Below are positions 3,180 to 50,077 of a stretch of 50,440 nt of DNA, one piece after another. Under the pieces are notes generated by a model, which saw only the letters and a program-made list of their open reading frames with translations, was not told the origin of the DNA and searched no databases. Positions within the stretch are counted from its first letter, which is position 1. Every line of letters begins with the position of its first letter. Source of the DNA: Patescibacteria group bacterium (lineage in GTDB: Bacteria; Patescibacteriota; Minisyncoccia; Phycocordibacterales; UBA9973); the NCBI GenBank assembly GCA_040384805.1, contig JAZKIP010000010.1, positions 29,545 through 79,984 on the forward strand, in the 5' to 3' direction. Made by a program: the position numbers and the translations under genes.

Positions 3180-3253
3180 GGGCGATTAGTTTAATGGTAG
3201 AACAACGGTCTCCAAAACCGTTGGTGGGAGTTCGATTCTTCCATCGCCCGCCA
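3180..3253 (+). tRNA. tRNA-Trp (anticodon CCA) with encoded 3' CCA
   Basis: GGGCGAT-TA-GTTTAATGGTAGAAC-A-ACGGT-CTCCAAA-ACCGT-TGGT-GGGAG-TTCGATT-CTTCC-ATCGCCC-G-CCA. Acceptor, anticodon and T stems all pair. Confidence 0.9.
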
Positions 3254-3424
3254 TGATCCGCAAGGATAGCTGGAAGGAGCTATCCGCGTGGAGTATCATT
3301 GCGAGGCGATGGAAGAATCGAAAGCCGGACTCCGACTCGGGTCGGAGGAGGCGGGGTCGCGAGATTTTTCACCAGAAAAATACTTGTGACCGATAAATGT
3401 ACTCATGATCTTCCATCGCCCGCA
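3254..3424 (+). other. GC-rich structured trailer of tRNA-Trp, with an antisense and a sense partial copy of the tRNA 3' end
   Basis: 3305-3322 is the exact reverse complement of tRNA positions 3231-3248 (18 nt). 3410-3423 repeats CTTCCATCGCCCGC (14 nt exact). Hairpins are GGATAGCT/AGCTATCC and CTCCGAC/GTCGGAG. There is no plausible ORF. Confidence 0.6.
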
Positions 3425-13909: not shown

Positions 13910-13969
13910 GCCTTTATTTTTACCAGAAATATGGTAGTATAAAAGCACAACTTAATAAAAAAAGTAGCC

Positions 13970-14110
13970 TAAACCTTTAGTAATAAAGGCATGGTGAAAG
14001 CTCAAGTCCTGCAAAGACATAAAAAACCGATCATGGGTTTGTCTTTGCAGGCCGTGTCCGAAAGGATACGAGGAGCGAAAGCTTCTATCCCGTGGTCGGC
14101 TTTTTGTTTG
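13970..14110 (+). ncRNA. structured RNA leader, copy A (motif shared with 42530-42682)
   Basis: P1 is CCTTTA-GTAA-TAAAGG (13974-13989). P2 is CCTGCAAAGAC/GTCTTTGCAGG (14008-18/14041-51). P3 is GTCC-GAAA-GGAT (14056-67). It ends in a T-rich tail. Copy B keeps the same architecture with compensatory changes. Confidence 0.55.
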
Positions 14111-17581: not shown

Positions 17582-17596
17582 GAACGCTAACATCCA

Positions 17597-17770
17597 ATGT
17601 CAATCGATAACATAAAAAACAAAAAACCAAGAAAAGGAAAGGCTAAAAATACGAAGCCCTTTGTGTTTTCTTATTATGTTGTTGAATCAGCATCGGAAAC
17701 AGAAGTTCAGTCGAGAATAGATAAAGCGTTCGACATCCTTTTCTCGGAGGTTGTGAATAAGTCTAATTGA
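17597..17770 (+). CDS. possible 57-aa basic/acidic small protein
   Basis: MSIDNIKNKKPRKGKAKNTK... lies between the replicase and the excisionase-like gene. It is below the ORF-track cutoff. Confidence 0.3.
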   Translation: MSIDNIKNKKPRKGKAKNTKPFVFSYYVVESASETEVQSRIDKAFDILFSEVVNKSN

Positions 17771-17802
17771 CATCTATAGACAATTAGGAGTATAGTATAT
17801 TT

Positions 17803-17982
17803 ATGGAATTTCTAACTAGGACCGAGGTAGCAAAATATTTCAGAGTTCACGAAAGAACAGTTGATCGCTGGATTGAGAGCGGTATTTTGAAGAGTTATAA
17901 ACTTGGAAAGGGCAGGACTGCGTTATTGAGAATACCAAAGTCAGAGGTAAAGAAGTTTTTAGAGAAAAGTAAAAACAAATAA
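17803..17982 (+). CDS. excisionase-family / MerR-like HTH DNA-binding protein
   Basis: 59 aa. LTRTEVAKYFRVHERTVDRWIESGILKSYKLGKG...RIPKSEV is the classic HTH_17/excisionase pattern. It ends 2 nt before the recombinase start. Confidence 0.75.
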   Translation: MEFLTRTEVAKYFRVHERTVDRWIESGILKSYKLGKGRTALLRIPKSEVKKFLEKSKNK

Positions 17983-17984
17983 AA

Positions 17985-19646
17985 ATGATAGAAGAAATTC
18001 AAAAACAAAATAAGTTGATTGCGGTTTACGGAAGAGTATCAACTTCAAATCAAGAAAATGAAGGTACTATTGAGACCCAGCTTTCGGCTGTGAGAGAATT
18101 TGCTAAAGCACATGGTTATACCATAGTAAAAGAATACTTAGACGAGGGCTGGAGTGGTGATACTCTCGTAAGGCCATCTCTCGATCAGCTTCGTATAGAT
18201 GCAAAAAAGAAAGGTTGGGAAGCAGTCTTGATTTTTGACCCTGATAGATTAGCAAGACGTGGAGCATGGCAAGAAGTCGTAATAGAAGAATTAAAAGAAC
18301 TAGAGATTGATGTTCTCTTTGTTACTATTCCACAACCTAAAACAGATGAAGATAAGATTATGTATAAAATGAGAGGAGTATTCACCGAGTACGAGAGAAT
18401 GAAGATCAAAGAAAGATTTAGACTTGGAAAAGTTCGCAAAGCCAATGAAGGTCATATTATCTCTACAGAAGGGCCTTATGGTTATAATTTCATAACTAAG
18501 AAAGGGAAAAAAGGCGATGCAGATTTTCTAGAAAGTCATTATGAGATTAACGAATATGAATCACAAATTGTTAAAAACCTTTTTTCATGGGTAGCAGATG
18601 AAGGGCTAACCTTGCGTGCTATTGTTCGGAGACTTCAAGAATTAAATATACAGCCACGTAAGAGTAAAAGAGGTGTTTGGAATACGAGTACATTAAGCAC
18701 TCTTTTCAAAAACAAAACTTATATCGGAGAAGGTCACTATGGGGCCTCTTATGCCGTAGTACCAACAAATCCTTTGAAAAAAGAGGGATATAGAAAGATT
18801 AAAAAAACCAGTAGAAAGATGAAGCCAGAGAATGAATGGATCATTATTCCCACTCCTAAAATTATAGATGAAGATATCTTCATGAAAGTCGGACAACGTT
18901 TAAGATCAAATTTTGAACTTTCGTCTAGAAACACAAAGAACGAGTATCTGCTTAGTGGTAAAATATGGTGTGATTGTGGCAAAAGGCGTGCAGGAGAAGG
19001 CCCACAGCAGGGCAAGCATCTTTATTATCGGTGTACTGATCGAGTAAAGAGTTTTCCTCTACAACCTGAATGTAAAGAAAAAGGCTTAAATGCTAAGATC
19101 CTCGATCCACTAGTATGGCAAGGAGTTGCAAATCTTATGAGTTCTCCTGAATTACTTCTTAAGCAAGCAGAGCGTTGGCTAAATAATCAGAAAATGGGAA
19201 ACAAAACTTCAACAATAAATATTGAAGAAACAAAAAAAGAAATTGCTAAATTGAAAGATCAAGAGGATCGTTACACTAAAGCGTATGGAGCTGGCGTTAT
19301 TACCATAGACCAACTAAAAGAATACATCGCACCACTGAAAGAAAAAATATCATTGTTCAATAGTCAAATCAATAAAGCTCGATTAGAGACAGAACACATT
19401 GATGAAAGGCAATTACCAAAATTAAATGAAATAGAAGTATTTGCAGAAAAAGCATCAGAATTCTTAAAAGACTTGAAATTTAATGCTAAAAAGGCCATAA
19501 TCAACAATATTGTTGATAAAGTGGTCGGAACCAGAGAGAAATTACAAGTATATGGATATATTCCAGTAACATCATCAGATATTAATGTCTTCACTGAGTA
19601 TCGGCATCGTAGGACTTCCCAACGTCGGCAAATCGACGCTTTTTAA
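17985..19646 (+). CDS. large serine recombinase (integrase)
   Basis: 553 aa. The resolvase catalytic N-terminus is IAVYGRVSTSNQ...QL. A recombinase domain follows, then a zinc ribbon (CDCGKRR...YYRC) and a coiled coil. The last about 20 codons overlap the ychF start. Confidence 0.9.
   Translation: MIEEIQKQNKLIAVYGRVSTSNQENEGTIETQLSAVREFAKAHGYTIVKEYLDEGWSGDTLVRPSLDQLRIDAKKKGWEAVLIFDPDRLARRGAWQEVVIEELKELEIDVLFVTIPQPKTDEDKIMYKMRGVFTEYERMKIKERFRLGKVRKANEGHIISTEGPYGYNFITKKGKKGDADFLESHYEINEYESQIVKNLFSWVADEGLTLRAIVRRLQELNIQPRKSKRGVWNTSTLSTLFKNKTYIGEGHYGASYAVVPTNPLKKEGYRKIKKTSRKMKPENEWIIIPTPKIIDEDIFMKVGQRLRSNFELSSRNTKNEYLLSGKIWCDCGKRRAGEGPQQGKHLYYRCTDRVKSFPLQPECKEKGLNAKILDPLVWQGVANLMSSPELLLKQAERWLNNQKMGNKTSTINIEETKKEIAKLKDQEDRYTKAYGAGVITIDQLKEYIAPLKEKISLFNSQINKARLETEHIDERQLPKLNEIEVFAEKASEFLKDLKFNAKKAIINNIVDKVVGTREKLQVYGYIPVTSSDINVFTEYRHRRTSQRRQIDAF
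19585..19610 (+). repeat. attR-like junction: element-encoded replacement start of ychF
   Basis: ATGTCTTCACTGAGTATCGGCAT|CGTAGGACTT parallels 6452-6475. The proposed crossover dinucleotide is AT at 19606-19607. Confidence 0.6.
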
Positions 19647-24940: not shown

Positions 24941-27793
24941 ATGAAAAATTACGACCATACTAAAATTGAGCGTAAATGGCAGAAGGAATGGGAGGCGAAA
25001 AAACTATACCATGCAAAGACAAAAGCTAAGGGAAAGAAATTTTATGGCTTGATCGAGTTCCCATATCCGTCAGGATCAGGCCTTCATGTGGGCCACATCA
25101 GAAGCAATACGGCTATGGATATTATCACTCGCAAGCGCAGGATGGAGGGATACAACGTGCTCTATCCGATCGGCTGGGATGCTTTCGGACTGCCGACGGA
25201 AAACTATGCGATCAAGACAGGAAAACAGCCCGAAAAAGTAACCAAAGAAAATACCGACATGTTCCGCAAACAGCTCAAGGCATGCGGCTTCGGATTCGAC
25301 TGGTCGCGGGAAATCAATACGACCAATCCGGCCTATTATAAATGGACGCAGTGGATATTCTTGCAATTTTATAAGAAAGGTCTCGCATATAAGACGAAGA
25401 CCATGATCAACTGGTGCCCGAAGGACAAGATCGGCCTTGCCAACGAAGAAGTGGTCAACGGCCGCTGCGATCGCTGCGACGGTCCCGTTGAAAAAAGAGA
25501 AAAGGAGCAGTGGATGCTTGCGATCACGAAATACGCCGATCGTCTTGATAAAGATCTCGATGATGTGAATTACCTTGAAAAGATCAAGATCCAGCAGAGA
25601 AACTGGATCGGAAAATCCGAGGGAAGCGAAATTGATTTTACAATCAAAAATTTCCCGGAAAAAGTTACCGTTTTCACAACCCGTGCCGATACTCTCTACA
25701 GTGCCTTTGCAGTTATCCTTGCACCGGAGCACTCTTTGGTGGAGTCTCTGAAAGGACAGATAGAAAACTGGAGCGATGTGGAGAAATATATTTCCGATGT
25801 TAAGAAGAAAACTGATATCGAGCGTACCGCCGAGGACAAGGAAAAAACAGGAATCGAGCTCAAGGGAATCCGTGCGATCAATCCGATTAACAACGAAGAA
25901 ATTCCCGTATGGATCGCAGACTTCGTGCTTGTCCACTACGGTACGGGAGCGATATTCGCCGATATTCATGACGAGCGCGATCATGCCTTTGGCAAGAAAT
26001 ATGGCTTGCCCATGCGTCGCTCAATCGAGCCGGTATTCCATGCGTCTGACCATCCGATCCGGGACGGCCTTCCTGTTATAAAGCGCAATGCTATCTGCGC
26101 TGTTATTCGAAACCCGAAAGACGATACCTATTTATGCAGCGTCTGGCGCGATATGCATATGCACGGTCTCATCACCGGGGGCGTCGAAGACGGAGAGGAT
26201 ATGGTGAAAGCGGCCATGCGGGAAATATATGAGGAAACAGGATATAAGAACGTAAAGCTCGTCAATAATCCCGATATCGCGATACACAGCACATTTTTTC
26301 ACCGCAAGAAGCAGGAGAATCGATGGGCGCGATTCCAGTACATGTTTTTTGATTTGATCGATAAGGAGAAAGATGAAATCGACGAAAAAGAAGCTGCCAT
26401 CCATGACGTTGTCTGGAAGAAAAGAAGCGAGCTCGATAATTTTTTCTCTGTCGTTGAAGGGGAATTCGTTCTTAATTTGATCGATACGGGTGACTATATA
26501 CATACGGGAGAGGGAATACTCTCGAATTCAGGTCCTCATACCGGCATGACATCCGAAGAAGCCCGAAAAAAGATAACAGAAGCTATCGGAGGAAAGATCG
26601 TGACGAAATACAAGCTTCGTGACTGGGTCTTCTCGCGTCAGCGCTATTGGGGAGAGCCGATTCCGATCATTCATTGCCAGATATGCGGCTATGTTCCGGT
26701 TCCGGAAAAAGATTTGCCGATACTCTTGCCGAAAGTAAAATCATATACGCCGACCGACACCGGTGAATCTCCGCTTGCCGCAATTTCGACATGGGTTAAT
26801 ACGACATGCCCCCACTGCAAAGGCAAAGCCAAGAGGGAAACTGACACGATGCCCAATTGGGCGGGAAGCTCGTGGTACTATCTTCGCTATACTGATTCGA
26901 AGAATAAGAAAGAATTCGCAAGCCCGAAAGCCCTTTCATATTGGATGAGCAAGAAGTCAGGCGGAGTCGACTGGTACAACGGCGGCATGGAGCATACGAC
27001 GCTCCATCTGCTCTACTCGCGTTTCTGGCACAAATTCCTCTACGATTTAAAGCTTGTGCCAACGCATGAACCCTATATGAAAAGAACATCTCATGGCATG
27101 ATCTTAGCCGATGACGGTTCAAAAATATCAAAATCAAAAGAAAATGGCGTCAATCCGATCGATGTCATAAAAACCTACGGAGCTGACACCCTTCGGGTCC
27201 ACGAGATGTTCATGGGTCCGTTCGACCAGGCAGTGCCGTGGAATTCAGAGAGCCTGATCGGCTCGCGGCGATTTCTTGAGAAAGTGTGGAGAGCCGCAAC
27301 TCTCCTTGAGACTAAGAATAAAAACTCTCATAAGGAAATCGAAAAAACTCTTCATAAGACGATCAAGAAAGTCACTGAGGATATTGAGACCATGAGCTTC
27401 AACACGGCGGTCTCGTCGATGATGGTCCTTGTCAATGAAATTGAAAAACAGAAGGAGATTTCCCGGAAGGATTTCATGATGTTTTTACGGATACTCTGTC
27501 CCTTCGCTCCTTTCATTGCCGAAGAGTTGTGGCATCAGATGGGAGAGAAAAAATCAATTCATCGTGCGCCATGGCCCGCATATGATTCACAAAAGATCAT
27601 CGATGAGGAGATTACAATCGTCTTTCAAGTCAATGGCCGCGTGCGCACGGAAAGAAAGATCCCTCGCGATTTATCCGAAGAAGAGATCAAGGCTCTTGCT
27701 ATAAGCGACAGCGTCGTTATCCCGTGGATCGATGGCAAGGAAATAAAGAAAATCATCTATGTGCCCGGACGACTTGTTAACATTGTTGTCTAG
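24941..27793 (+). CDS. leuS: leucine--tRNA ligase carrying an inserted NUDIX hydrolase domain
   Basis: 950 aa. HVGH (HIGH), KISKSK (KMSKS), the CP1 editing motifs TTRADTLYSAF and GTGAIFADIHDERD, and RDWVFSRQRYWGEPIP. The Nudix box GGVEDGEDMVKAAMREIYEETGY is at nt 26177-26245, inside an extra segment of about 150 aa. Confidence 0.95.
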   Translation: MKNYDHTKIERKWQKEWEAKKLYHAKTKAKGKKFYGLIEFPYPSGSGLHVGHIRSNTAMDIITRKRRMEGYNVLYPIGWDAFGLPTENYAIKTGKQPEKVTKENTDMFRKQLKACGFGFDWSREINTTNPAYYKWTQWIFLQFYKKGLAYKTKTMINWCPKDKIGLANEEVVNGRCDRCDGPVEKREKEQWMLAITKYADRLDKDLDDVNYLEKIKIQQRNWIGKSEGSEIDFTIKNFPEKVTVFTTRADTLYSAFAVILAPEHSLVESLKGQIENWSDVEKYISDVKKKTDIERTAEDKEKTGIELKGIRAINPINNEEIPVWIADFVLVHYGTGAIFADIHDERDHAFGKKYGLPMRRSIEPVFHASDHPIRDGLPVIKRNAICAVIRNPKDDTYLCSVWRDMHMHGLITGGVEDGEDMVKAAMREIYEETGYKNVKLVNNPDIAIHSTFFHRKKQENRWARFQYMFFDLIDKEKDEIDEKEAAIHDVVWKKRSELDNFFSVVEGEFVLNLIDTGDYIHTGEGILSNSGPHTGMTSEEARKKITEAIGGKIVTKYKLRDWVFSRQRYWGEPIPIIHCQICGYVPVPEKDLPILLPKVKSYTPTDTGESPLAAISTWVNTTCPHCKGKAKRETDTMPNWAGSSWYYLRYTDSKNKKEFASPKALSYWMSKKSGGVDWYNGGMEHTTLHLLYSRFWHKFLYDLKLVPTHEPYMKRTSHGMILADDGSKISKSKENGVNPIDVIKTYGADTLRVHEMFMGPFDQAVPWNSESLIGSRRFLEKVWRAATLLETKNKNSHKEIEKTLHKTIKKVTEDIETMSFNTAVSSMMVLVNEIEKQKEISRKDFMMFLRILCPFAPFIAEELWHQMGEKKSIHRAPWPAYDSQKIIDEEITIVFQVNGRVRTERKIPRDLSEEEIKALAISDSVVIPWIDGKEIKKIIYVPGRLVNIVV

Positions 27794-38056: not shown

Positions 38057-38129
38057 GCCGAGATAGCTCAGTTGGTAGAGCGCTCCCCTGAAGAGGGATA
38101 GGTCACCAGTTCGACTCTGGTTCTCGGCA
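38057..38129 (+). tRNA. tRNA-Phe (anticodon GAA)
   Basis: GCCGAGA-TA-GCTCAGTTGGTAGAGC-G-CTCCC-CTGAAGA-GGGAT-AGGTC-ACCAG-TTCGACT-CTGGT-TCTCGGC-A. Confidence 0.92.
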
Positions 38130-38256
38130 CAAAAAAGTTAATTAGCAACGTATTTTAGAAAATAGACGATTTTTTTAGCCAGTCCCGCCTGTAAACAGGC
38201 TCTCGGCCCTAATTCTAAAAAATACAAAATATGATCGCCGCATGTAATAAAATTAC

Positions 38257-39150
38257 ATGGATTTATTGATCTTGTGCCAGAAGTTTTGTGATTATTCCTT
38301 GTCCATAAAAGGATTCTCAAAGGTTACGGTTAGGCGCTATAGGCAAGTAATACGCTTCTATTGCAAGCAGGCAGCCATAAGCGACATCAACGAAGTAACA
38401 CAGGAGAATATACGCGCTTTGTTCTATAATGGAAGGACAGAGCGATCTTGGACGCCGAATACCTTTATTCATTACCATAAATCATTACTGGTCTTTTTCA
38501 GATGGTGTATCAAACAGGGTTATATGGAAAGTAATCCTGTACATGATATCGAAATACCCAAGCTCCATAAGAAACTGCCTCCCAAGCTAACCAGACAAGA
38601 TGCCATACGCCTTTTGGAGGTTGCTTATAACTATCCTTATAAATATAAGTTTTTAAGATATCGCAATCATGCCATATTCTCGATGTTTATCTTTACCGGC
38701 TTGCGGAAGCAGGAATTACTACATCTTAAATTTACCGATGTGGATATAGAAAATCTCTCTATCTTTGTCAGGCAAGGGAAGGGGAATAAGGATCGCATTG
38801 TGCCGATGTCATATACTCTCGCTTTGAGCCTAAAAAGGTATCTGGAGGAGAGGAAGCGGCTCCATAAGACATGTCCTGAATTTTTTACATCATTGAATCA
38901 GAATCATGGTTTTACCGAAAGCGGGCTTAGAAACCTTATTTCACAGCTTCGTGTTTCATCGGGAATATTCTTCACAGCGCATAAATTGCGACATACATTC
39001 TCTACATTGATGCTCGAAAATGGCGTTGATATCTATTCTCTAAGCAAGATGCTCGGACACTCGGATATCAAGACTACTACTATTTATCTGTATGCCAGTG
39101 CGGAACATTTGCGTGCCCAGATAGGGAAGCACCCTTTAAATGAGATTTAA
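38257..39150 (+). CDS. tyrosine recombinase / integrase (XerC/D-like)
   Basis: 297 aa. The N-terminal SAM-like domain is followed by the catalytic ...TGLRKQELLHL...HKLRHTFSTLMLENGVDIYSLSKMLGHSDIKTTTIYLY (R...HxxR...Y). Confidence 0.9.
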   Translation: MDLLILCQKFCDYSLSIKGFSKVTVRRYRQVIRFYCKQAAISDINEVTQENIRALFYNGRTERSWTPNTFIHYHKSLLVFFRWCIKQGYMESNPVHDIEIPKLHKKLPPKLTRQDAIRLLEVAYNYPYKYKFLRYRNHAIFSMFIFTGLRKQELLHLKFTDVDIENLSIFVRQGKGNKDRIVPMSYTLALSLKRYLEERKRLHKTCPEFFTSLNQNHGFTESGLRNLISQLRVSSGIFFTAHKLRHTFSTLMLENGVDIYSLSKMLGHSDIKTTTIYLYASAEHLRAQIGKHPLNEI

Positions 39151-39225
39151 TTTCTGTTTAGTATTTTTGGTTGGTGTGCTTAGCAAAATACAGGTTTGCC
39201 AAGTGGGGGTCTTCAAGTGATTCTG

Positions 39226-39266
39226 CTTAGTGCTTGGTAATATCTATATGATATTACCAAGCTAAG
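39226..39266. terminator. bidirectional hairpin between the convergent integrase and prim-pol genes
   Basis: CTTGGTAATATC-TATAT-GATATTACCAAG is a perfect 12 bp, extended by CTTAG/CTAAG. Confidence 0.55.
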
Positions 39267-39291
39267 AAGCTGAAGAGTTATATTTAGAGCC

Positions 39292-41100
39292 TTAAGAGTT
39301 TTCTGCTGGTACTACATTATAGTACTTTGTGTTGTGGTGAATTGGCTTAGAATCATCTAGAACATCAAGCCCTTGTAGTCTAATGTCTTTACCCTCTAGC
39401 ATTACTATTTTGCCGTCTAGTCCTAATAATTTAAGACTTTCTCTAATTGATTTATTTCCTGCAATTTCCGATTCGACTAGATCGTCTACGGTTACCCACT
39501 TTCTAAGATTAGTCATGGTAGTAAGTATTTCTTCGTAAACCTTTTTGTTTGATTTTGCCCCATTATATTCACCGTCATAAGTAAAGAAATCATCTTTGCC
39601 ATCAATATTTATAATCACTTTAATCGGGTTCATTTTCTTATCTCCCTTTAACTTGTCTTGGCTTATAATCAAATACTGAGTATCGGTATCCTTGTCCTTT
39701 TGGGGTTCAAGACTTATGTGCCCGTGTACTGCTGCATTTATCGCACTACTTCCTCTTGTTTCTTCTGCTCCCATATTGCTCTTACCAAACCCCGATTTTT
39801 TGCGGTTATGGTGTGTAAATAGGATAGTAAATCCAGCGTTAGTTATTTTCTTAAGGTTATTCATGACCCCCTGCATGGCAGTAGAATCATTTTCTTCGGC
39901 AGAGTGAATACTGCGAAGTGAATCAAATATAATGAATTTAACTCCGCGATCTTTTCCTATGCCGATAATACTGTCTACTGTTTTTTCATCTAACTGAATT
40001 TCATTTGATACCATAAAGTGTATTGGCAAATTATCCCATTCCTTTTCTAAAATATTAAGTCTTTCTCTGATTTGTCTTGCTCGATCCTCTTCATTAATAA
40101 TGAGAACCCCTTGTTGTTTAACAGCAAGGTTCCCAAATAGTGGTTTTCCTTTGGATAAACAAATGGCAATGTAAAGTGTAAGCCAGCTTTTAAAGTTATT
40201 TGGTGCGGCACTGACCATATTTACTGTTTCGGTCTCAAAAAGCCCTTGGACTGCCCATGCGGCTTCAGGAAATTCTGCATTACTAAGTTCTTTTGCACCC
40301 ATTACTAACAGTTCTTTTTTAGTTTCAGAGGTAATTCTCTTTGACAATTCTGCTTTTACAATGGAGCGATAAATCGTATCAATTTCCGAATTTGGCAAAG
40401 GTTTTTCTGCGCCCTTATTAACTAAATGCATTAGCGGTCTTACAAATGTTTCCCAATCATCTTGTTTTAGAGTGGCTAACAGCTTTCCTGTCATTGAGGT
40501 GATGTTATTGTTTCGTGAGCCGACTAATAGGTTTAGATATGGCGATGGCTTGCTTGAACTTACTTCTTTTTGATCTTCCTTAATTTTTTCTTCAAACCAT
40601 TCAGGCAGAGGGGGAATGGGTTCACTATCATCTGGCTCTACGGCCCACCAGTAATCTTTTGCCAAGCCAATTGTTGAAGATGGCAGAAGAATATATCCAC
40701 CATCTGCTTTAATGTCTACTCCTTGTCCAAATAACTTACCATTTGTAGATTTCACATGGTAGCCGGGGTGAAGAAAGAAAAAATGCCAGCCCGCATTTCC
40801 TGTTCTTGAGTGAACAGTGTTTCCGAGAGGGAACTCATCAACAGATCGTGGATTCTCTCCCTTTGCATCAATATCCAATACTACTAAATTTGATATTTTT
40901 CCTGTAACTACGGCAGGATTTGCATCTGGCCATTTAGCCCACCATTCCTTAATTTGCTCCTCAGAGGCACTTTCTTGTTGATATTTAACCCAAGATGAAA
41001 TATATGGGGTCTTGTCCTCTTTAACAGGGATTATAGACCAACCTAATTTTTCACATTTTAATGCGGTTTCTAATTTAATATTTGTCTTTATTTCTATCAT
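39292..41100 (-). CDS. bifunctional prim-pol domain + RecA-like (AAA_25) ATPase replicase
   Basis: 602 aa. The N-terminus has GWSIIPV...NPAVVTGKISNLVVLDIDAKG...GWHFFF...VDIKADGGYILLPSS (prim-pol). The C-terminus has MVSAAPNNFKS (Walker A-like), FIIFDSLRS (Walker B) and ILFTHHNRK. Confidence 0.8.
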   Translation of the reverse strand: MIEIKTNIKLETALKCEKLGWSIIPVKEDKTPYISSWVKYQQESASEEQIKEWWAKWPDANPAVVTGKISNLVVLDIDAKGENPRSVDEFPLGNTVHSRTGNAGWHFFFLHPGYHVKSTNGKLFGQGVDIKADGGYILLPSSTIGLAKDYWWAVEPDDSEPIPPLPEWFEEKIKEDQKEVSSSKPSPYLNLLVGSRNNNITSMTGKLLATLKQDDWETFVRPLMHLVNKGAEKPLPNSEIDTIYRSIVKAELSKRITSETKKELLVMGAKELSNAEFPEAAWAVQGLFETETVNMVSAAPNNFKSWLTLYIAICLSKGKPLFGNLAVKQQGVLIINEEDRARQIRERLNILEKEWDNLPIHFMVSNEIQLDEKTVDSIIGIGKDRGVKFIIFDSLRSIHSAEENDSTAMQGVMNNLKKITNAGFTILFTHHNRKKSGFGKSNMGAEETRGSSAINAAVHGHISLEPQKDKDTDTQYLIISQDKLKGDKKMNPIKVIINIDGKDDFFTYDGEYNGAKSNKKVYEEILTTMTNLRKWVTVDDLVESEIAGNKSIRESLKLLGLDGKIVMLEGKDIRLQGLDVLDDSKPIHHNTKYYNVVPAENS

Positions 41101-42529: not shown

Positions 42530-42682
42530 AACCTAACCCTTTAGAAATAAAGGTATGGTAGTAAATCCTCCGCAACAAAGACGGTCATCTGACTGGCTCT
42601 CTGTTGCGGAGGTCTACACTTGAAAAGGTGTAGTGGCGGTCCGAAAGGATTCGCTTGCCAGTTCGGGTGACCTTTTTTGTTA
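42530..42682 (+). ncRNA. structured RNA leader, copy B (same motif as 13970-14110)
   Basis: P1 is CCTTTA-GAAA-TAAAGG (42538-53). P2 is CCTCCGCAACA/TGTTGCGGAGG (42567-77/42602-12). P3 is GTCC-GAAA-GGAT (42639-50). It ends in a T-rich tail. The P2 sequence differs from copy A but stays complementary. Confidence 0.55.
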
Positions 42683-44939: not shown

Positions 44940-45461
44940 ATGAAATTAACAGCTATTGAAAGAGCAACTCTCATAATGCTCCACAAAATACTCAAAAATC
45001 TAGAACCAGAAAATAAGAAAGAACACACAAATGCAATTGAAATCCTTGAAGATGGATATTATGAAATGTGGGAGAATGAATGTCTTGGACATCTAAGTCA
45101 GCCATTGGAGAAAGAAAAAATGAATTATGTTCATGATATTCTAGGTATGTATTGGCGACTGCAGGATTCATATAAAGACTTAAGTGATGGAGACAAAAAG
45201 AAAGTAGGAACTGAAGATACAGTCATCTTCGAAGGATTTGATGGAAATAATGAAACAGAATTATTGTCATATGCACGATTTCTTATGGAGAGATTTGATA
45301 AATGGAGTGGTGTAAAAGCCACACATGATCTTAATACTCATGCTCCAACTGGTAGAAGATATAGTGCTATGCTCGAAGCAATGCCAAGCTCAGAACTAAG
45401 ACACCTTTCTGCGGAACAGATCAATACAGTTCTTAAAGCACAATTTATAAACATTATTTAA
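44940..45461 (+). CDS. YfbU-family (UPF0304) protein
   Basis: 173 aa. ...ERATLIMLHKIL..LEP, ILEDGY, FEGFDGNNETELLSYARFLM and LSAEQINTVLKA line up with the E. coli YfbU pattern as I remember it ([20 protein letters not shown]...LSANEINQIINA). Confidence 0.65.
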   Translation: MKLTAIERATLIMLHKILKNLEPENKKEHTNAIEILEDGYYEMWENECLGHLSQPLEKEKMNYVHDILGMYWRLQDSYKDLSDGDKKKVGTEDTVIFEGFDGNNETELLSYARFLMERFDKWSGVKATHDLNTHAPTGRRYSAMLEAMPSSELRHLSAEQINTVLKAQFINII

Positions 45462-45466
45462 TAAAA

Positions 45467-46006
45467 ATGAAAATAAGTATATCAAAATTAGATGCTGCAA
45501 AAAGGCAATTAGAAATGGCCCTGAACCTCTTTTTTAGAAATGCAGATCCTGTTTCTATTCATACGTTGGTCGGAGCGGCACACCAAGTTTTACAGGATAT
45601 CTGTGAAGAACAAGGTACGCAAAGTATAAAACAGAAATTACTGGATATGGTTAAACCAGAAAAGAAAACAGAGTTTATAAAAAAATTAAATGCGCCACGC
45701 AATTTTTTTAAACATGCTGAGAATGATCCAAACAGTGTCATAGAATTCAATCCTGAAATGACTGACCTTATTTTGTGGGATACATGTTTAATGTATACAA
45801 CATTAACACAAGAGAATCCGGCAATAATACAGGTATTTAACGCTTGGAACTATGCTAATTCTCCAGAAATATTGATCTTGCCTGATCAAGTAAGAGAGAA
45901 GTTAGATCTAGCAATTACTGGGTTAAAGCTAAATCCACAAAATCGAATAGGTTTTTTAGAATTAGTCCCTTTAATTGAGAATAATTTATATGGACAAACT
46001 ACATGA
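45467..46006 (+). CDS. hypothetical helical protein with an RNxxxH (HEPN-like) motif
   Basis: 179 aa. APRNFFKHAEND (nt about 45698-45715) fits the HEPN Rx4-6H / Abi-type RNxxxH motif. It starts 5 nt after the YfbU-like gene. Confidence 0.5.
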   Translation: MKISISKLDAAKRQLEMALNLFFRNADPVSIHTLVGAAHQVLQDICEEQGTQSIKQKLLDMVKPEKKTEFIKKLNAPRNFFKHAENDPNSVIEFNPEMTDLILWDTCLMYTTLTQENPAIIQVFNAWNYANSPEILILPDQVREKLDLAITGLKLNPQNRIGFLELVPLIENNLYGQTT

Positions 46007-46688
46007 TAATATTCAATTTTATATTGATGAATCCTATAATGCTAACTTTTTAGGAGTAGCTATTGTTGTCATTCTTGGTGAAACTAATATCAAAATTACA
46101 CAAGGTATTCTTTCTTCGCTAAGTAACGATCCAGTATTCAAGCATCGCAATAATGGCTCCGGCAAGATCCATTCCACTGAGAATAATCTTGGTCCCAAGA
46201 TAAATGTTGTAGATAAAATTTACCAAATGCCAATATCAACTTACTTATCTTACAAAAAGCAAGATACTTCCTCGCTAACAAAGCAAGAAATGGATGAGAT
46301 CGCATATGGAGAATTGCTACCTGAACTTTTAAAAAGAATAGCTACAAAATATATAAAGAACTTCAAAGACCGATCTATAATTATTACCCTAGAATTTGAA
46401 CAATTAAGTGATAAAAAGGAAAAAGATAGGTTGTTTTTTGCTGAATGTATTAAGGATTTAATATTTAATTTTGAAATCCAAGTATTAAGTAAAAAGAACA
46501 TTTTTACTAGCCTTCCAGATTACTTCTTGACGTTTTTGCGGAATTTACTAGAAGAACCACATACCAATTGGTCTAAGAATGAGTTAGAGTTGGTTGAAAG
46601 CAAGATAGGGCTTATACTTGATGCAAGTAATCTCCAAAGGAAGTATTACAGTAGAGGAGATGAAATAAGGAACTTTATAAAAGCATAG
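45990..46688 (+). CDS. DUF3800-like protein
   Basis: 232 aa from the ATG at 45990. The N-terminal FYIDES motif and the later SLPDYFL resemble DUF3800 (YxDESG ... QxAD). It overlaps the previous gene by 17 nt. Confidence 0.5.
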   Translation: MDKLHDNIQFYIDESYNANFLGVAIVVILGETNIKITQGILSSLSNDPVFKHRNNGSGKIHSTENNLGPKINVVDKIYQMPISTYLSYKKQDTSSLTKQEMDEIAYGELLPELLKRIATKYIKNFKDRSIIITLEFEQLSDKKEKDRLFFAECIKDLIFNFEIQVLSKKNIFTSLPDYFLTFLRNLLEEPHTNWSKNELELVESKIGLILDASNLQRKYYSRGDEIRNFIKA

Positions 46689-46695
46689 TAATTAG

Positions 46696-46775
46696 TGAGG
46701 CCTCTAGCTATTAGTTTAGGGCATGAGTTCGTGTCCGGTATAGTATATTTACTGTTTTCCTAGCTAGAGGCCTCA
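46696..46775 (+). ncRNA. perfect 15-bp inverted repeat enclosing 50 nt, immediately upstream of the RT (candidate compact msr/msd-like RNA)
   Basis: TGAGGCCTCTAGCTA (46696-46710) and TAGCTAGAGGCCTCA (46761-46775). The loop contains the small hairpins GGGCA/TGTCC and AGTA/TACT. It lies 10 nt before the RT ATG. Confidence 0.45.
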
Positions 46776-46784
46776 TTGCTTATT

Positions 46785-47768
46785 ATGAAAATACCATCTG
46801 ACGAGATAAAAAATATTAAAACCCTAGAGAATTTTTGTAGGTTTTTCGCTATTTCCGAAGAACAGCTTGTTCACTTTAGAAAACATAAAAATGAGTTATT
46901 TAAAGTTGCAAAAATAGGCAAAAGAAGTGGTGGGCATAGGATTATTTATCCGATAGGGGATGACGGCTATAGGAATTTCTTAAAAGCCACTGCAGAAATA
47001 CTCGATGATCATTATATGCATAATTCAAGTTCTCCGCCTCAGAGCGTACACGGTTTTCTTAGAAATAGATCAATTATTACAAATGCTCAATGTCATGTAA
47101 AGAAAAAGATACTTTTGAATTTGGATATTAAGGATTTCTTCGAGTCAATTACAAAAGATAAAATAAACGAAATATTTATAGACCTAGGCTTTAGTAAAAA
47201 CCATAGTTCAATCCTTACAGAATTTGTAACAGTTAATGATGTCTTAGCTACAGGATTTCCTTCTAGTGCCGTATTGGCTAATATAGTCTGCAAACAAATG
47301 GATTATGGTTTTGAAATACTTTGTAAAAAATATGAAGCTACATATACACGTTATGCTGACGATATATCAATATCTAGTAATATATCTATTCCCGAGAAAG
47401 AAGTTATCGTTAAGCTTCTCTGTGGTTACGGATTTGAAATAAACGATAGGAAATATAAAATATCTCCCCGTGGTGGAAATCAGTATGTTACAGGGCTAAC
47501 TGTCTGCGACGAAAGACCGAGATTATCAAGAAAGCTAAAACGATCAATACGCCTAGAACTTTACTATATTAAAAAATATGGCTCTACAGATCACTTTCTC
47601 CATAACTTAAATAGATCTATATATAGTAAATTTACTGGTATGTTATTTACATACAGCATGGGTGGATATATATCTTTTATCCACTCTATAGAACCTGAAT
47701 TGGCTAAAAAGATTAGGAAAGTTTTAAGTTATACTAAGATTAAGGCTAATTTCTTTTTAGAAGAGTAA
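46785..47768 (+). CDS. retron-type reverse transcriptase
   Basis: 327 aa. RIIYPI, SVHGFLRNRSIITNAQCH (NAxxH), LLNLDIKDFFESI, LATGFPSSAVLANI, YTRYADDISIS (YADD at 47352-47363) and QYVTGLTV (VTG). It aligns motif by motif with Ec86 RT as I remember it. Confidence 0.85.
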   Translation: MKIPSDEIKNIKTLENFCRFFAISEEQLVHFRKHKNELFKVAKIGKRSGGHRIIYPIGDDGYRNFLKATAEILDDHYMHNSSSPPQSVHGFLRNRSIITNAQCHVKKKILLNLDIKDFFESITKDKINEIFIDLGFSKNHSSILTEFVTVNDVLATGFPSSAVLANIVCKQMDYGFEILCKKYEATYTRYADDISISSNISIPEKEVIVKLLCGYGFEINDRKYKISPRGGNQYVTGLTVCDERPRLSRKLKRSIRLELYYIKKYGSTDHFLHNLNRSIYSKFTGMLFTYSMGGYISFIHSIEPELAKKIRKVLSYTKIKANFFLEE

Positions 47769-47780
47769 ATTATATAAGGT

Positions 47781-48794
47781 ATGAAAGAAAATTTAATTAA
47801 AAATGAAATAAGCATTGAATTACATTATAATTTTGTTGATAATAGCACTCATTCAATAGATTTTCATACTAGAAATATATGTTCTTTGGTTCAAGTAGAG
47901 ATCATTTCATACATAATAAAAACACTAGATCCTAATGTAGAATTTGAAATATTATCATTACCTCCACAAGATGGTTCTTTTAAAGATTTAAACGTTGTTA
48001 AGTTTTTAAATAGGAACACAGGCCTTATTACTGCAGTTACGCTTATATTTACGGGACTACTATTTAATTCTCAAAGAGAAGCTAATAGTACCACTGCAGA
48101 TTTTAATACATTACAGATAGTAGAAAAATGTAAAGGTTTAGGCTTAGATGAGGAAAAAATTCAAAAAGTAGAAGATATATGCAGTTCCTATTACACAAAA
48201 AAACAAAAGAATGCTTTTTATCAATCAGTAATATCAAATAAAGATGTAACTAGTATAGAACCTACAGTAATTGAAAATAGTAAAGATACTTTCAACAAAG
48301 AAATTGAAAAAAAGAATTTTAGAGATTATATAGAAGAAATACCGAAGGAAAAAGAATTTCTAAAAACTAATCTGTCGGGTAATATACAACTATCTCAACC
48401 CTTTATTGATAAACAACAGCAGTATGGAAGAGGTGTAGCGTGGAAAGGTGTATATTACGGAAGCGATGTCTTTGATGATAACGATGAGTTGATTATAGAA
48501 GACGGAGAAAACATCTATTTTTACATGCAGGATGATGATTATAAAAACCAGATATTAAATCAAGAGATTTCATTTACTAGTGGAGATAACATTGGTGTAA
48601 CTTTCGATATAAGCCGATACTATGATTATATTAACGGTAAATTTGGTAAACCAAGATTGTACATAAAAAGAGTTATATCTCATAATGACAATCTAGTACA
48701 GCATAAACAAGAGCTGGCATTAAAAAAGGAGAAGAAGAAATTTGACGAAAAAAATAAAAATCAAGGCCTGTTATTCCATAATAGCCAAAACTAA
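47781..48794 (+). CDS. hypothetical protein with one central TM segment (candidate RT-associated effector)
   Basis: 337 aa. The TM segment is GLITAVTLIFTGLLF. I recognise no motif. It starts 12 nt after the RT. Confidence 0.6.
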   Translation: MKENLIKNEISIELHYNFVDNSTHSIDFHTRNICSLVQVEIISYIIKTLDPNVEFEILSLPPQDGSFKDLNVVKFLNRNTGLITAVTLIFTGLLFNSQREANSTTADFNTLQIVEKCKGLGLDEEKIQKVEDICSSYYTKKQKNAFYQSVISNKDVTSIEPTVIENSKDTFNKEIEKKNFRDYIEEIPKEKEFLKTNLSGNIQLSQPFIDKQQQYGRGVAWKGVYYGSDVFDDNDELIIEDGENIYFYMQDDDYKNQILNQEISFTSGDNIGVTFDISRYYDYINGKFGKPRLYIKRVISHNDNLVQHKQELALKKEKKKFDEKNKNQGLLFHNSQN

Positions 48795-49509: not shown

Positions 49510-49648
49510 TTAAAGCCGTTCGAAGCCAACATTGACAAAAACTAAATATTGTTATAACGTAATTTTAATTATCGCTATTTGAAATAGATTTTGTGATGGA
49601 TAGAGGAAATCTATCTAGTTTTTTCTATTCACCACAAAATCAAATAAG

Positions 49649-50077
49649 ATGAGAAATATACATTACATTTCTGTTGATAAAAAAACTGGGAAGGTCGATT
49701 TAATGGGACATGACAGATCCCCACTTTCTTATATAGAGACTGCTCAAAGTTATGAGGGATTTTCGATTGGAGACTATAACGAACTACTCTACTTTTTAGC
49801 AGGACTGCTTTTTACGCAAAAAGAATGGGTGGTAATCATCGACAATAAAGACCGTTCTTCCATAGAAAGTAAATCTGCTTTTATGTTACGGGAATTTCTT
49901 TCTCAGCTATCAGATTCAGTAAGACGAGAATTCTTTAATGAAATTAAAGCCAATAATTTGGATGAAAGAGATGCTTCCAGCTGGTTGTATGAGCATCCAG
50001 AAATCAAATTGCCCGATATTAAGAATAAAATAATAACAGGTAAAAAGTTTTTGGAAGACTTGATTGCCAGCAAATAA
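49649..50077 (+). CDS. hypothetical protein
   Basis: 142-aa ORF followed by a terminator hairpin. Confidence 0.5.
   Translation: MRNIHYISVDKKTGKVDLMGHDRSPLSYIETAQSYEGFSIGDYNELLYFLAGLLFTQKEWVVIIDNKDRSSIESKSAFMLREFLSQLSDSVRREFFNEIKANNLDERDASSWLYEHPEIKLPDIKNKIITGKKFLEDLIASK

What the first reader, a model, noticed from the sequence alone, without database searches (positions are those of the whole stretch)
46689..47768. Retron-type reverse transcriptase preceded by an unusually compact inverted-repeat RNA candidate
**The RT.** It has all retron hallmarks: NAxxH (TNAQCH), YADD, the VTG motif and an Ec86-like C-terminus.

**The RNA candidate.** Retrons need an msr-msd RNA bounded by a1/a2 inverted repeats, usually 130 nt or more in total. 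Here only 96 nt separate the upstream gene from the RT. That gap is almost filled by a perfect 15-bp inverted repeat (46696-46710 / 46761-46775) around just 50 nt.

**Possible explanations.**
- This is a minimal msr/msd giving a very short msDNA.
- The template RNA overlaps the upstream coding sequence or lies elsewhere. For example, the hairpin-rich 49580-49641 region has GATTTTGTG...CACAAAATC arms around GATAGA-GGAAA-TCTATC.
- The RT uses a different priming mode.

Any of these would be unusual, especially in a CPR-type host.
Basis: partly seen in the sequence, partly recalled or inferred. Interest (0 to 1): 0.75.

Follow-up and report, generated by a model that had tools for sequence, protein, structure and literature searches.

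The report
Type VII-A2 retron with compact ncRNA
A Patescibacteria (CPR) chromosome carries a known kind of anti-phage retron, made of an RNase-H2-like DUF3800 gene and a reverse transcriptase, and the short inverted-repeat RNA between the two genes is a conserved structure shared by that whole retron clade, not a one-off oddity.

Summary
A perfect 15-bp inverted repeat, extendable to 18 to 27 bp, fills the 96-nt gap before a retron-type RT.

**What the locus is.** The RT scores best as PADLOC RT_VII-A2. The upstream gene is a DUF3800_VII protein with an RNase HII-like predicted fold. The locus is therefore a type VII-A2 retron (RT clade 4) in a Patescibacteria defence island.

**The repeat.** It is the closing stem (P1) of an RNA of about 86 nt. 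A 7-bp hairpin (P2) with an AGUN loop sits inside it.
- The same architecture lies before the RT in 12 CPR loci, in 10 proteobacterial, actinobacterial and metagenomic type VII-A1/A2 loci, and in 3 gut loci.
- P1 and P2 carry many compensatory changes.
- It is not a terminator, and no Rfam family matches it.

**Novelty is limited.** Khan et al. (retron census) already used homologous 88-92-nt elements as the predicted ncRNA of clade-4 retrons.
- Three of four type VII retrons gave no RT-DNA in E. coli.
- A type VIII relative gave a 65-nt cDNA spanning the whole interior.
- One VII-A2 retron gave a cDNA running out into upstream sequence.

**Verdict.** This is a new member of a known kind. Compactness is the clade norm. 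Whether a roughly 50-nt msDNA is made remains open. The 49580-49641 hairpin is unrelated.

The parts
45990..46688 (+). DUF3800_VII gene (232 aa from ATG 45990; an alternative TTG start lies at 45975). It is the RNase-H2-like partner or effector of the retron.
   Evidence: - PADLOC DUF3800_VII at 8e-8.
- 5 of 15 orthologues hit Pfam DUF3800.
- Invariant residues D13, E14, H61, D177 and Y178.
- The AlphaFold model has pLDDT 86, and its top 8 PDB matches are all archaeal RNase HII (E = 6e-6 to 5e-4).
- An orthologue lies directly upstream of the RT in all 12 CPR loci.
46693..46778 (+). Compact structured ncRNA, the candidate msr/msd equivalent of clade-4 retrons (86 nt). In close relatives an outer extension to 46684-46787 is possible.
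   Evidence: - Fold z = -8.
- Covariance model R1 scores 99.4 bits on the + strand against 34.5 bits on the - strand.
- Conserved in 12 CPR loci with covariation.
- No Rfam match.
46693..46710 (+). P1 5' arm (a1). Its inner end, GCUA, is invariant in the CPR group.
   Evidence: helix 2: 18 pairs, 94% of cells paired, 13 pairs with changes on both sides. The inner 14 pairs are paired in every sequence.
46711..46718 (+). J1 linker (UUAGUUUA). The last A is invariant.
46719..46736 (+). P2 hairpin, GGGCAUG-AGUU-CGUGUCC. It has a 7-bp stem and an AGUN loop, and is the presumed RT recognition element.
   Evidence: -, helix 3: 98.8% of cells paired, 3 pairs with compensatory changes, and G-U pairs that make sense only on the + strand.
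- The same hairpin occurs in type VII-A1, VII-A2 and VIII elements.
46737..46760 (+). J2, a 24-nt 3' segment. It starts with an invariant G and ends in a conserved CUGUUUUCC-like motif next to a2. It is the candidate start of the template. A local 6-bp hairpin, 46740-46745 / 46750-46755, is not conserved.
   Evidence: -.
- The candidate helix P3 is only 59% paired across 12 loci.
- By analogy with the type VIII RT-DNA, which maps from the a2 junection inward.
46761..46778 (+). P1 3' arm (a2).
46785..47768 (+). Retron reverse transcriptase, type VII-A2 (clade 4), 327 aa.
   Evidence: - Pfam RVT_1 at 2e-15.
- PADLOC RT_VII-A2 at 260.8 bits, against 233 bits for the next model, RT_III-A.
- NAxxH, YADD and VTG are present and invariant.
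- The best-ranked relatives in GTDB genomes are type VII retrons (L001, L002, L003).

Best explanation
Window 45990-47768 is a type VII-A2 retron: a clade-4 retron RT with a separate DUF3800 RNase-H2-like protein. It sits in a defence or mobile island of a Patescibacteria (Paceibacteria-like) chromosome.

**The RNA.** The intergenic inverted repeat is the closing stem (P1, a1/a2) of the retron's own structured RNA, about 86 nt long. Its conserved core is:
- P1, 14-18 bp;
- an 8-10-nt linker;
- a 7-bp hairpin P2 with an AGUN loop;
- a 24-26-nt, mostly single-stranded 3' segment ending in a conserved pyrimidine-rich motif.

This compact form is the standard ncRNA of clade-4 retrons (types VII-A1, VII-A2 and VIII).

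**Most likely mechanism (inferred, not shown).**
1. The RNA is transcribed within the DUF3800-RT operon.
2. The RT binds P2.
3. The RT primes at the inner end of P1 and copies the interior from 46760 leftwards.
4. At most a cDNA of about 50 nt results, predicted as 5'-GGAAAACAGTAAATATACTATACCGGACACGAACTCATGCCCTAAACTAA. It is made at low level or only on a trigger.
5. The RT-RNA(-cDNA) complex keeps the DUF3800 nuclease in check until phage infection disturbs it.

**Confidence by step.**
- Identity of the system: about 0.9.
- This RNA is the RT's cognate ncRNA: about 0.85.
- It is reverse-transcribed into a short msDNA from the a2 junction: about 0.45.
For: **Classification**
- RT_VII-A2 at 4e-78 and DUF3800_VII at 8e-8.
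- The DUF3800 model matches only RNase HII structures at E < 1e-3. This agrees with Mestre 2020 (PMC7736814).

**Synteny**
- All 12 CPR loci (RT 44-66% identical to the window's) have a 223-244-aa DUF3800 orthologue, then a 64-165-nt gap, then the RT.
- Downstream genes differ in every lineage.

**Structure**
- Every gap holds the same P1/P2 architecture, with a 49-54-nt interior.
- RNAalifold finds 17 of 27 pairs with compensatory changes.
- The count of structure pairs: P1 is 94% paired with 13 covarying pairs, and P2 is 98.8% paired. 0 of 500 shuffles reach the observed covariation. Slid controls drop to 35-43% paired.

**Strand**
- G-U pairs in P2, and model scores of 99 bits (+) against 34 bits (-).

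**Specificity**
- Model R1 found the motif on the RT strand, directly 5' of the RT, in 10 of 160 generic retron loci.
- The five of these tested with PADLOC classify as RT_VII-A2 or RT-DUF3800_VII-A1. Tested motif-negative loci are type III-A or XI/XII.
- Three further VII-A2 loci that the filters missed show the motif on inspection.

**Experimental anchor**
- The census construct for the type VIII retron Mestre-796 has the same architecture in 88 nt. It gave a 65-nt RT-DNA that maps to positions 12-76, the whole interior from the a2 junction.
Against: - No conserved unpaired G follows a1 and none precedes a2. The neighbours are U or A, and C. The canonical branching-G geometry is therefore not evident.
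- There is no conserved long msd stem. Candidate P3 is 59% paired.
- Three type VII retrons gave no RT-DNA in E. coli: Mestre-807 (= my L001) and Mestre-789 (= L092) with the compact element alone, and Mestre-783 with a longer construct that contains the motif. [quoted passage not shown]
- The one positive VII-A2 case (Altibacter, Mestre-803) gave a cDNA whose 5' end maps at the 5' strand of P2. It runs leftwards through a1 into upstream sequence, which does not fit simple initiation at a2.
- All functional steps are inferred. No transcript or cDNA data exist for this organism.
Confidence: 0.7

Rival explanations
1. The conserved RNA is the RT's binding partner or a cis-regulator, but it is not constitutively reverse-transcribed. 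cDNA would be made only on phage infection, as reported for type VI retrons, or not at all. The stem would mainly control RT expression. In the window and its closest relatives the extended stem pairs the DUF3800 stop-codon region (46684-46692) with the RT start-codon region (46779-46787). Ribosomes terminating on DUF3800 could then open the RT start, giving translational coupling.
For: - Three of four type VII retrons gave no RT-DNA, and clade 4 gave 'almost none' in the census.
- There is a type VI precedent for retrons without standing msDNA (bioRxiv 10.1101/2025.10.22.683967).
- The 27-nt extended repeat spans the stop and start codons.
- G-U wobbles in P2 would become A-C mismatches in a cDNA hairpin, so selection acts on the RNA.
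Against: - The outer extension is 68% paired with essentially no compensatory change, and it is confined to close relatives (helix 1).
- In more distant CPR loci the RT start lies 9-70 nt beyond a2.
- VII-A1 loci have the motif without an upstream DUF3800 gene.
- The type VIII relative and one VII-A2 retron did yield RT-DNA.
Confidence: 0.22
2. The true template is larger than the compact element. Reverse transcription starts inside the element, near P2, and runs 5'-ward through a1 into the 3' end of the DUF3800 coding sequence. The result would be a long cDNA complementary to the effector mRNA, a possible substrate or regulator for the RNase-H2-like protein.
For: In the Altibacter VII-A2 construct (Mestre-803), the first 39 nt of the reported RT-DNA (listed as 170 nt in the census table, 181 nt as printed) map to positions 175-213. 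They end exactly at the 5' strand of P2 and continue upstream of a1. Production was 0.16x Eco1.
Against: - This is a single heterologous construct with an arbitrarily chosen long 'ncRNA'.
- The rest of the reported RT-DNA does not match the printed ncRNA exactly.
- No conserved outer inverted repeat encloses a larger RNA in 14 loci. The best outer repeats are at shuffle level.
- The type VIII cDNA stops at a1.
- Mestre-783, with a long construct, gave nothing.
Confidence: 0.06
3. The inverted repeat is an intrinsic terminator, an RNase III processing site of the DUF3800 transcript, or a chance palindrome. It would have no link to the RT. The real retron RNA would lie elsewhere, for example at the 49580-49641 hairpin.
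For: The repeat lies immediately after a stop codon. Long perfect duplexes can be RNase III substrates.
Against: - There is no U-tract after the stem, and the terminator scan calls nothing there.
- The interior is 50 nt with its own conserved hairpin.
- The structure covaries across 12 loci.
- It precedes RT-DUF3800 fusion genes that have no upstream DUF3800 gene.
- The 49.6-kb hairpin has z = -3.2 and no model hit, and its flanking genes are absent from all homologous loci.
Confidence: 0.02

Closest known systems
Retron type VII-A2 (Mestre et al. 2020, RT clade 4). Examples: Mestre-807 from Deltaproteobacteria bacterium UBA6106 and Mestre-803 from Altibacter sp.
   Same: - A separate DUF3800 gene sits immediately upstream of the RT on the same strand.
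- The RT scores best on the RT_VII-A2 model.
- The same P1/P2(AGUN) compact RNA lies between the genes. L001, the Mestre-807 locus, is hit by the model built from the CPR elements.
   Different: - RT identity is only about 35%.
- The CPR elements have a longer, nearly perfect P1 (14-22 bp, no internal loop) and a shorter interior of 49-54 nt.
- The host is Patescibacteria.
Retron type VII-A1 (RT-DUF3800 fusion). Examples: Mestre-789 from Pseudoxanthomonas; loci L013, L002 and L003.
   Same: The same RNA motif lies directly 5' of the RT gene, with the same P2 hairpin followed by G and a CACUUGCUU-like 3' motif.
   Different: DUF3800 is fused to the RT C-terminus rather than encoded by a separate upstream gene. 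P1 is GC-rich and interrupted.
Retron type VIII (clade 4), Mestre-796 from Pseudomonas syringae.
   Same: It has an 88-nt compact ncRNA with a 12-bp P1 and a GUACG-AGUC-CGUAC hairpin. It is the only relative with a cDNA mapped inside the compact element: 65 nt, covering the whole interior.
   Different: The effector is a DUF626 serine esterase, not DUF3800. It has an extra 5' hairpin in J1. RT-DNA was seen by sequencing only (0 by PAGE).
Canonical retrons such as Retron-Eco1 (Ec86).
   Same: An RT with NAxxH, YADD and VTG; an adjacent same-strand RNA closed by a1/a2 inverted repeats; and a tripartite RT, RNA and effector logic.
   Different: Canonical ncRNAs are 130 nt or more. They have one to three msr hairpins, a long msd stem-loop and opposed unpaired G residues at the a1/a2 junction (Mestre 2020). 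Here there is one hairpin, no conserved msd stem and no such G. Abundant msDNA is not documented for this clade.
Type VI retrons (Retron-Vpa2, Retron-Sen3).
   Same: They are retrons that give no detectable msDNA in standard assays. They serve as a functional analogy for conditional reverse transcription.
   Different: They belong to a different RT clade (3), have different partners (small protein plus HTH) and a different RNA.
DUF3800-I to XI and RT-1 to RT-19 RNA motifs (Weinberg et al. 2017).
   Same: They are structured RNAs found next to DUF3800 or RT genes, with function unknown.
   Different: No Rfam 15 model reaches even E = 10 on the window element. None reaches its gathering score in 20 related loci. 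I could not check whether all of those motifs are in Rfam.

Membership tests
Retron (general definition) | RT of the retron lineage with NAxxH, YADD and VTG motifs | tested here: met
   TNAQCH, YADD and YVTGL are in the translation and invariant in 30 homologues. All top PADLOC hits are retron RT models.
Retron (general definition) | Adjacent same-strand structured RNA closed by a1/a2 inverted repeats | tested here: met
   P1 is 18 bp at 46693-46710 / 46761-46778, ending 7 nt before the RT start. It covaries in 12 loci.
Retron (general definition) | msr hairpin(s) plus a long, stable msd stem-loop | tested here: not met
   Only one conserved hairpin (P2) is present. The candidate second helix is 59% paired and not conserved. 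The whole interior is only 50 nt.
Retron (general definition) | Conserved unpaired branching G at the 3' end of a1, opposed by a G 5' of a2 | tested here: not met
   The base after a1 is U or A, and the base before a2 is C or G-variable. Invariant G residues instead lie inside the inner end of P1 (GCU) and immediately 3' of P2.
Retron (general definition) | Production of branched msDNA | not testable with these tools
   Literature on relatives: none for Mestre-807, 789 and 783; low for 803; sequencing-only for the type VIII retron 796.
Retron type VII-A2 (Mestre 2020 / PADLOC) | RT belongs to the clade-4 VII-A2 group | tested here: met
   RT_VII-A2 scores 260.8 bits and is the best of 63 models. 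The margin over RT_III-A is a modest 28 bits. The nearest relatives in two collections are VII-A2 or VII-A1. No full phylogeny was built.
Retron type VII-A2 (Mestre 2020 / PADLOC) | Separate adjacent DUF3800 protein with an N-terminal DE motif and an RNase H2-like fold | tested here: met
   DUF3800_VII at 8e-8. D13-E14 are invariant. The fold search returns only RNase HII at E < 1e-3, with TM 0.38-0.48.
Clade-4 compact retron RNA (as used in the Khan et al. census; no formal family) | A long P1 enclosing a 7-8-bp hairpin with an AGU(N) loop and a 3' single-stranded tail of 25-35 nt, directly 5' of the RT | tested here: met
   A model built from the CPR elements recovers the census elements L001 (Mestre-807) and L092 (Mestre-789).
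Intrinsic terminator | GC-rich hairpin with a short loop followed by a U-tract | tested here: not met
   The loop is 50 nt and a2 is followed by UUGCUUAUUAUG. The scan makes no terminator call at this site.
Rfam families (msr, DUF3800-n, RT-n and others) | Covariance-model match | tested here: not met
   Nothing at gathering score in the window or in 20 loci. At E <= 10 only chance hits appear: miRNA models, and RT-2 at 10 bits against a threshold of 40.

The most novel reading that the evidence does not exclude
Clade-4 retrons, including this one, may use their compact RNA in a non-canonical way. No unpaired branching G and no msd stem are conserved, and the partner is an RNase-H2-like enzyme.

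In this reading the RT copies either the entire interior, its own recognition hairpin included, into a cDNA of about 50 nt, or it runs out into the DUF3800 mRNA. The resulting RNA-DNA hybrid or junction, rather than a free msDNA stem-loop, would be the species that the DUF3800 nuclease senses or processes. Production would be conditional on infection.

This would explain why clade 4 looked 'dead' in the retron census and would define a distinct mode of retron operation.
Probability: 0.25. Interest if true: 0.7.

Novelty: new member of a known kind. Interest (0 to 1): 0.38.

Why it matters
**The gap in the literature.** Types VII and VIII (RT clade 4) are among the retron types whose RNA component and product remain formally uncharacterised.
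- Mestre 2020 lists their RNA family as 'nd' (not determined).
- A 2026 preprint still says the msr-msd 'have not yet been identified'.
- The experimental census found almost no RT-DNA from the clade.

**What this locus adds.** The locus and its CPR relatives form a divergent, AT-rich set of sequences. Together with proteobacterial and actinobacterial loci, they give covariation support for one shared compact structure, P1 plus an AGUN hairpin.
- This yields a usable covariance model.
- It yields precise mutational targets: P1, P2, G46707 and G46737.
- It yields a concrete predicted product of 50 nt or less to look for with assays that retain small DNA.

**Limits.** The work also documents retrons of this type in Patescibacteria defence islands. 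It does not reveal a new kind of system.

Tried and rejected
1. **Rfam.** No family matched at gathering score in the window or in 20 loci. At E <= 10 on the element only chance hits appeared.
2. **Generic locus scans.** It returned mostly other retron types at 39% identity or less. These were still useful as a specificity background.
3. **Viral contigs.** No close relatives of the RT were found.
4. **Structure prediction.** I repeated it with database hits.
5. **PDB by sequence.** A profile search with the DUF3800 alignment gave nothing. Only the fold search was informative.
6. **A third helix (msd-like).** It has one compensatory change between the window and L177 but is 59% paired overall, so I rejected it as a conserved feature.
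7. **A larger ncRNA closed by an outer inverted repeat,** as chosen for Altibacter in the census. The best outer repeats in 14 loci are at shuffle level. The window's 16-nt candidate is not conserved.
8. **A pseudoknot between the P2 loop (GAGU) and the J2 'ACUU' motif,** which could have explained the Altibacter cDNA start. The complementary tetranucleotide is absent in the window, L164, L167, L173, L175 and Altibacter, so I rejected it.
9. **The PDC-S42-like downstream gene as a retron component.** It is absent from every homologous locus.
10. **The 49580-49641 hairpin as the template.** Rejected.
11. **The model-fitted alignment A3.** It was contaminated by minus-strand hits on the near-palindromic stem, so I did not use it for pair counts.
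Full report
**1. The observation**

The coordinates are accurate. The upstream ORF ends with UAG at 46686-46688, and the RT ORF begins at AUG 46785. That start gives 327 aa, the length of its database homologues. The gap is therefore 96 nt.

The arms 46696-46710 and 46761-46775 are a perfect 15-bp inverted repeat around 50 nt. With G-U pairs the uninterrupted stem is 18 bp, 46693-46710 / 46761-46778. The repeat finder extends it to 27 nt at 85% complementarity, 46684-46710 / 46761-46787.

As RNA the region folds at -49.8 kcal/mol, against -23.1 +/- 3.3 for dinucleotide shuffles (z = -8.0). Across the whole window, only three inverted repeats with a 12-nt exact seed have an interior of 50 nt or more. 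The stem is not followed by a U-tract, and the terminator scan calls nothing there.

The RT carries TNAQCH, YADD and YVTGL. These residues are invariant in an alignment of 30 homologues.

**2. What the genes are**

- **The RT** hits Pfam RVT_1. Among 63 PADLOC retron RT models it scores best on RT_VII-A2, at 260.8 bits (4e-78). The next models are RT_III-A at 233 bits and RT-DUF3800_VII-A1 at 222 bits.
- **The upstream ORF** (45990-46688) hits PADLOC DUF3800_VII at 8e-8.
  - Five of 15 orthologues hit Pfam DUF3800.
  - The family keeps an invariant N-terminal D13-E14 plus H61 and D177-Y178.
  - An AlphaFold model (pLDDT 86, pTM 0.88) matches archaeal RNase HII and nothing else at E < 1e-3. There are 8 such hits, with TM 0.38-0.48.
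  - This reproduces what Mestre et al. 2020 reported for type VII retrons: a DE motif and an RNase H2-like model (PMC7736814).
- **The downstream gene** (47781-48794) resembles the PADLOC candidate PDC-S42 at 8e-25. It is absent from every homologous locus, so it is a neighbour and not a component.

The window itself is chromosomal. It encodes LeuRS, MurJ, LepA and alanine racemase. The retron lies downstream of tRNA-Phe and a Prim-Pol/AAA_25 gene, in what looks like an integrated island.

**3. The RNA is conserved and covaries**

I retrieved 12 distinct CPR-type loci through exact-protein look-ups. Their RTs are 44-66% identical to the window's, and their DUF3800 proteins 32-66%.

- All have the order DUF3800, then a gap of 64-165 nt, then the RT. 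Downstream genes differ (GmrSD, DUF2726, others).
- Every gap holds the same architecture:
  - an outer stem of 14-22 bp;
  - a linker of 7-10 nt ending in A;
  - a 7-bp hairpin with loop AGUU or AGUA;
  - an invariant G;
  - a tail of 23-26 nt ending in a CU(U)GUUUxCC-like motif;
  - the 3' arm.
- The interior is always 49-54 nt, so compactness is a family trait.

The covariation tests agree. On a MAFFT alignment that was not fitted to any structure, RNAalifold predicts P1 and P2, with 17 of 27 pairs showing compensatory changes. The count of structure pairs on 12 sequences gives:

| Helix | Cells paired | Covariation |
|---|---|---|
| P1 | 94% (inner 14 pairs: 100%) | 13 pairs changed on both sides |
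| P2 | 98.8% | 3 compensatory pairs |

- 0 of 500 column shuffles reach the observed covariation score.
- Sliding the 3' partners by 1-3 columns drops pairing to 35-43%.
- G-U pairs in P2 place the functional strand on the gene strand. So do the covariance-model scores, 99.4 bits (+) against 34.5 bits (-).

Two further candidate helices are not established. The outer extension that would pair the stop-codon region with the RT start codon is 68% paired and confined to close relatives. A candidate third helix in the 3' tail is 59% paired.

**4. The motif marks clade-4 retrons in general**

I built a covariance model from the CPR elements (R1) and searched 160 generic retron loci from GTDB genomes and JGI metagenomes.

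- It hit 10 loci. Every hit was on the RT strand and directly 5' of the RT.
- L013 and L003, with 595- and 612-aa ORFs, score 680-888 bits on RT-DUF3800_VII-A1. L002 has a 570-aa RT ORF of the same fusion size but was not scanned.
- L001 and L081 score 464 and 382 bits on RT_VII-A2. L021 scores 199 bits on RT_VII-A2, barely ahead of RT_III-A at 197 bits.
- Tested loci without the motif are type III-A or XI/XII.
- Three gut VII-A2 loci that the model's filters missed (L082-L084) show the same P1 and P2 (GAGUACG-AGU-CGUAUUC) on inspection.
- No Rfam 15 family, including any DUF3800-n, RT-n or msr model it holds, matches the element in the window or in 20 loci.

**5. What was already known**

- Mestre 2020 lists the structured-RNA family of clade 4 (VII-A1, VII-A2, VIII) as 'nd'.
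- A 2026 preprint repeats that the msr-msd of these types 'have not yet been identified'.
- The experimental census of Khan et al. (PMC10849725) nevertheless did predict and synthesise ncRNAs for clade 4. Its supplement shows they are this very element.

| Census retron | Type | Construct | RT-DNA result |
|---|---|---|---|
| Mestre-807 (Deltaproteobacteria UBA6106 = my L001) | VII-A2 | 92-nt compact element | none |
| Mestre-789 (Pseudoxanthomonas = L092 sequence) | VII-A1 | 89-nt compact element | none |
| Mestre-783 | VII-A1 | long construct containing the motif | none |
| Mestre-796 (P. syringae) | VIII | 88-nt compact element | 0 by PAGE, but a 65-nt RT-DNA by sequencing |
| Mestre-803 (Altibacter) | VII-A2 | 286-nt construct | 0.16x Eco1; 170 nt in the census table, 181 nt as printed |

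- I mapped the Mestre-796 RT-DNA to positions 12-76, the whole interior from the a2 junction back to the last a1 base.
- The first 39 nt of the Mestre-803 RT-DNA map to positions 175-213. They end at the 5' strand of P2 and then continue through a1 into upstream sequence.

**6. Mechanism**

Shown here: the classification, the synteny, and the conserved, strand-specific RNA structure.

Inferred:
1. The RNA is part of the DUF3800-RT operon transcript. No convincing promoter or terminator lies between the genes.
2. P2, the only element conserved in sequence and structure across VII-A1, VII-A2 and VIII, is the RT recognition hairpin. Its frequent G-U pairs would be A-C mismatches in a cDNA copy, so selection acts on the RNA.
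3. By analogy with Mestre-796, reverse transcription would start at the a2 junction (template base 46760). It could copy at most the 50-nt interior.
4. The RNase-H2-like DUF3800 protein is the effector or a processing factor that acts on the RNA-DNA hybrid or junction.

Several features argue against a simple canonical picture:
- no unpaired G follows a1 and none precedes a2;
- no conserved msd stem exists;
- type VII relatives give no or atypical RT-DNA.

Two rivals therefore stay alive:
- **Conditional or absent reverse transcription** with a mainly RNA-level or regulatory role, analogous to type VI retrons.
- **A template reaching into the DUF3800 coding sequence**, as in the Altibacter result. 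No conserved outer inverted repeat supports a larger defined RNA.

A terminator, a chance repeat, or a template at 49580-49641 are effectively excluded.

**7. Verdict**

But the system is a new, CPR-borne member of a known type, VII-A2. The 'unusual' compactness is the norm for its clade and was already exploited experimentally.

The modest new value has three parts:
- a covariation-backed consensus for the clade-4 retron RNA, which is absent from Rfam and from the published classification;
- the demonstration that it is shared by VII-A1, VII-A2 and VIII;
- precise, testable predictions about a very short or non-canonical cDNA.

Noticed in passing
window 13966-14086 (+) and 42530-42652 (+); L161:17-140; L170:4635-4766 (-): Two LOOT RNAs (Rfam RF03000, 70-73 bits) lie in the window, one about 4 kb upstream of the retron. 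LOOT RNAs also lie within a few kb of two homologous CPR retron loci. This may simply reflect LOOT abundance in Patescibacteria or in their mobile islands.
   Followed up: no
window 47781-48794 (+): The 337-aa protein immediately after the RT matches the PADLOC phage-defence candidate PDC-S42 at 8e-25. It is absent from all homologous retron loci. It is therefore a separate neighbouring candidate defence gene in a defence island.
   Followed up: partly
window 44940-46006 (+): A YfbU-domain protein (44940-45461, 9e-35) and a 179-aa protein with a weak Apea-like HEPN hit (45467-46006, E = 0.016) sit directly upstream. The second overlaps the start of the DUF3800 gene. Neither is conserved next to the retron elsewhere.
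   Followed up: no
window 38057-41100: tRNA-Phe (38057-38130) is followed, one 297-aa ORF later, by a Prim-Pol/AAA_25 gene on the minus strand (39292-41100). This suggests that the region holding the retron (about 39-50 kb) is an integrated mobile island.
   Followed up: no
window 15512-19646 (+): An AAA_25 (KaiC-like) ATPase and a large serine recombinase (Resolvase, Recombinase and Zn-ribbon domains) lie together. They look like a second mobile module in the same window.
   Followed up: no
window 24941-27793 (+): The leucyl-tRNA synthetase carries a NUDIX domain hit (residues 382-498, 1e-11). It is inserted after the editing domain.
   Followed up: no
window 3231-3248 / 3305-3322: A perfect 18-bp inverted copy of the 3' end of tRNA-Trp (3180-3253) lies 56 nt downstream of it.
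   Followed up: no
window 6730-11565 (+): A 1611-aa ORF has no Pfam match at E <= 1e-5.
   Followed up: no
It lies in the intergenic region before ORF 49649-50077. Its fold is only moderately better than shuffles (z = -3.2), and it has no link to the retron.
   Followed up: yes
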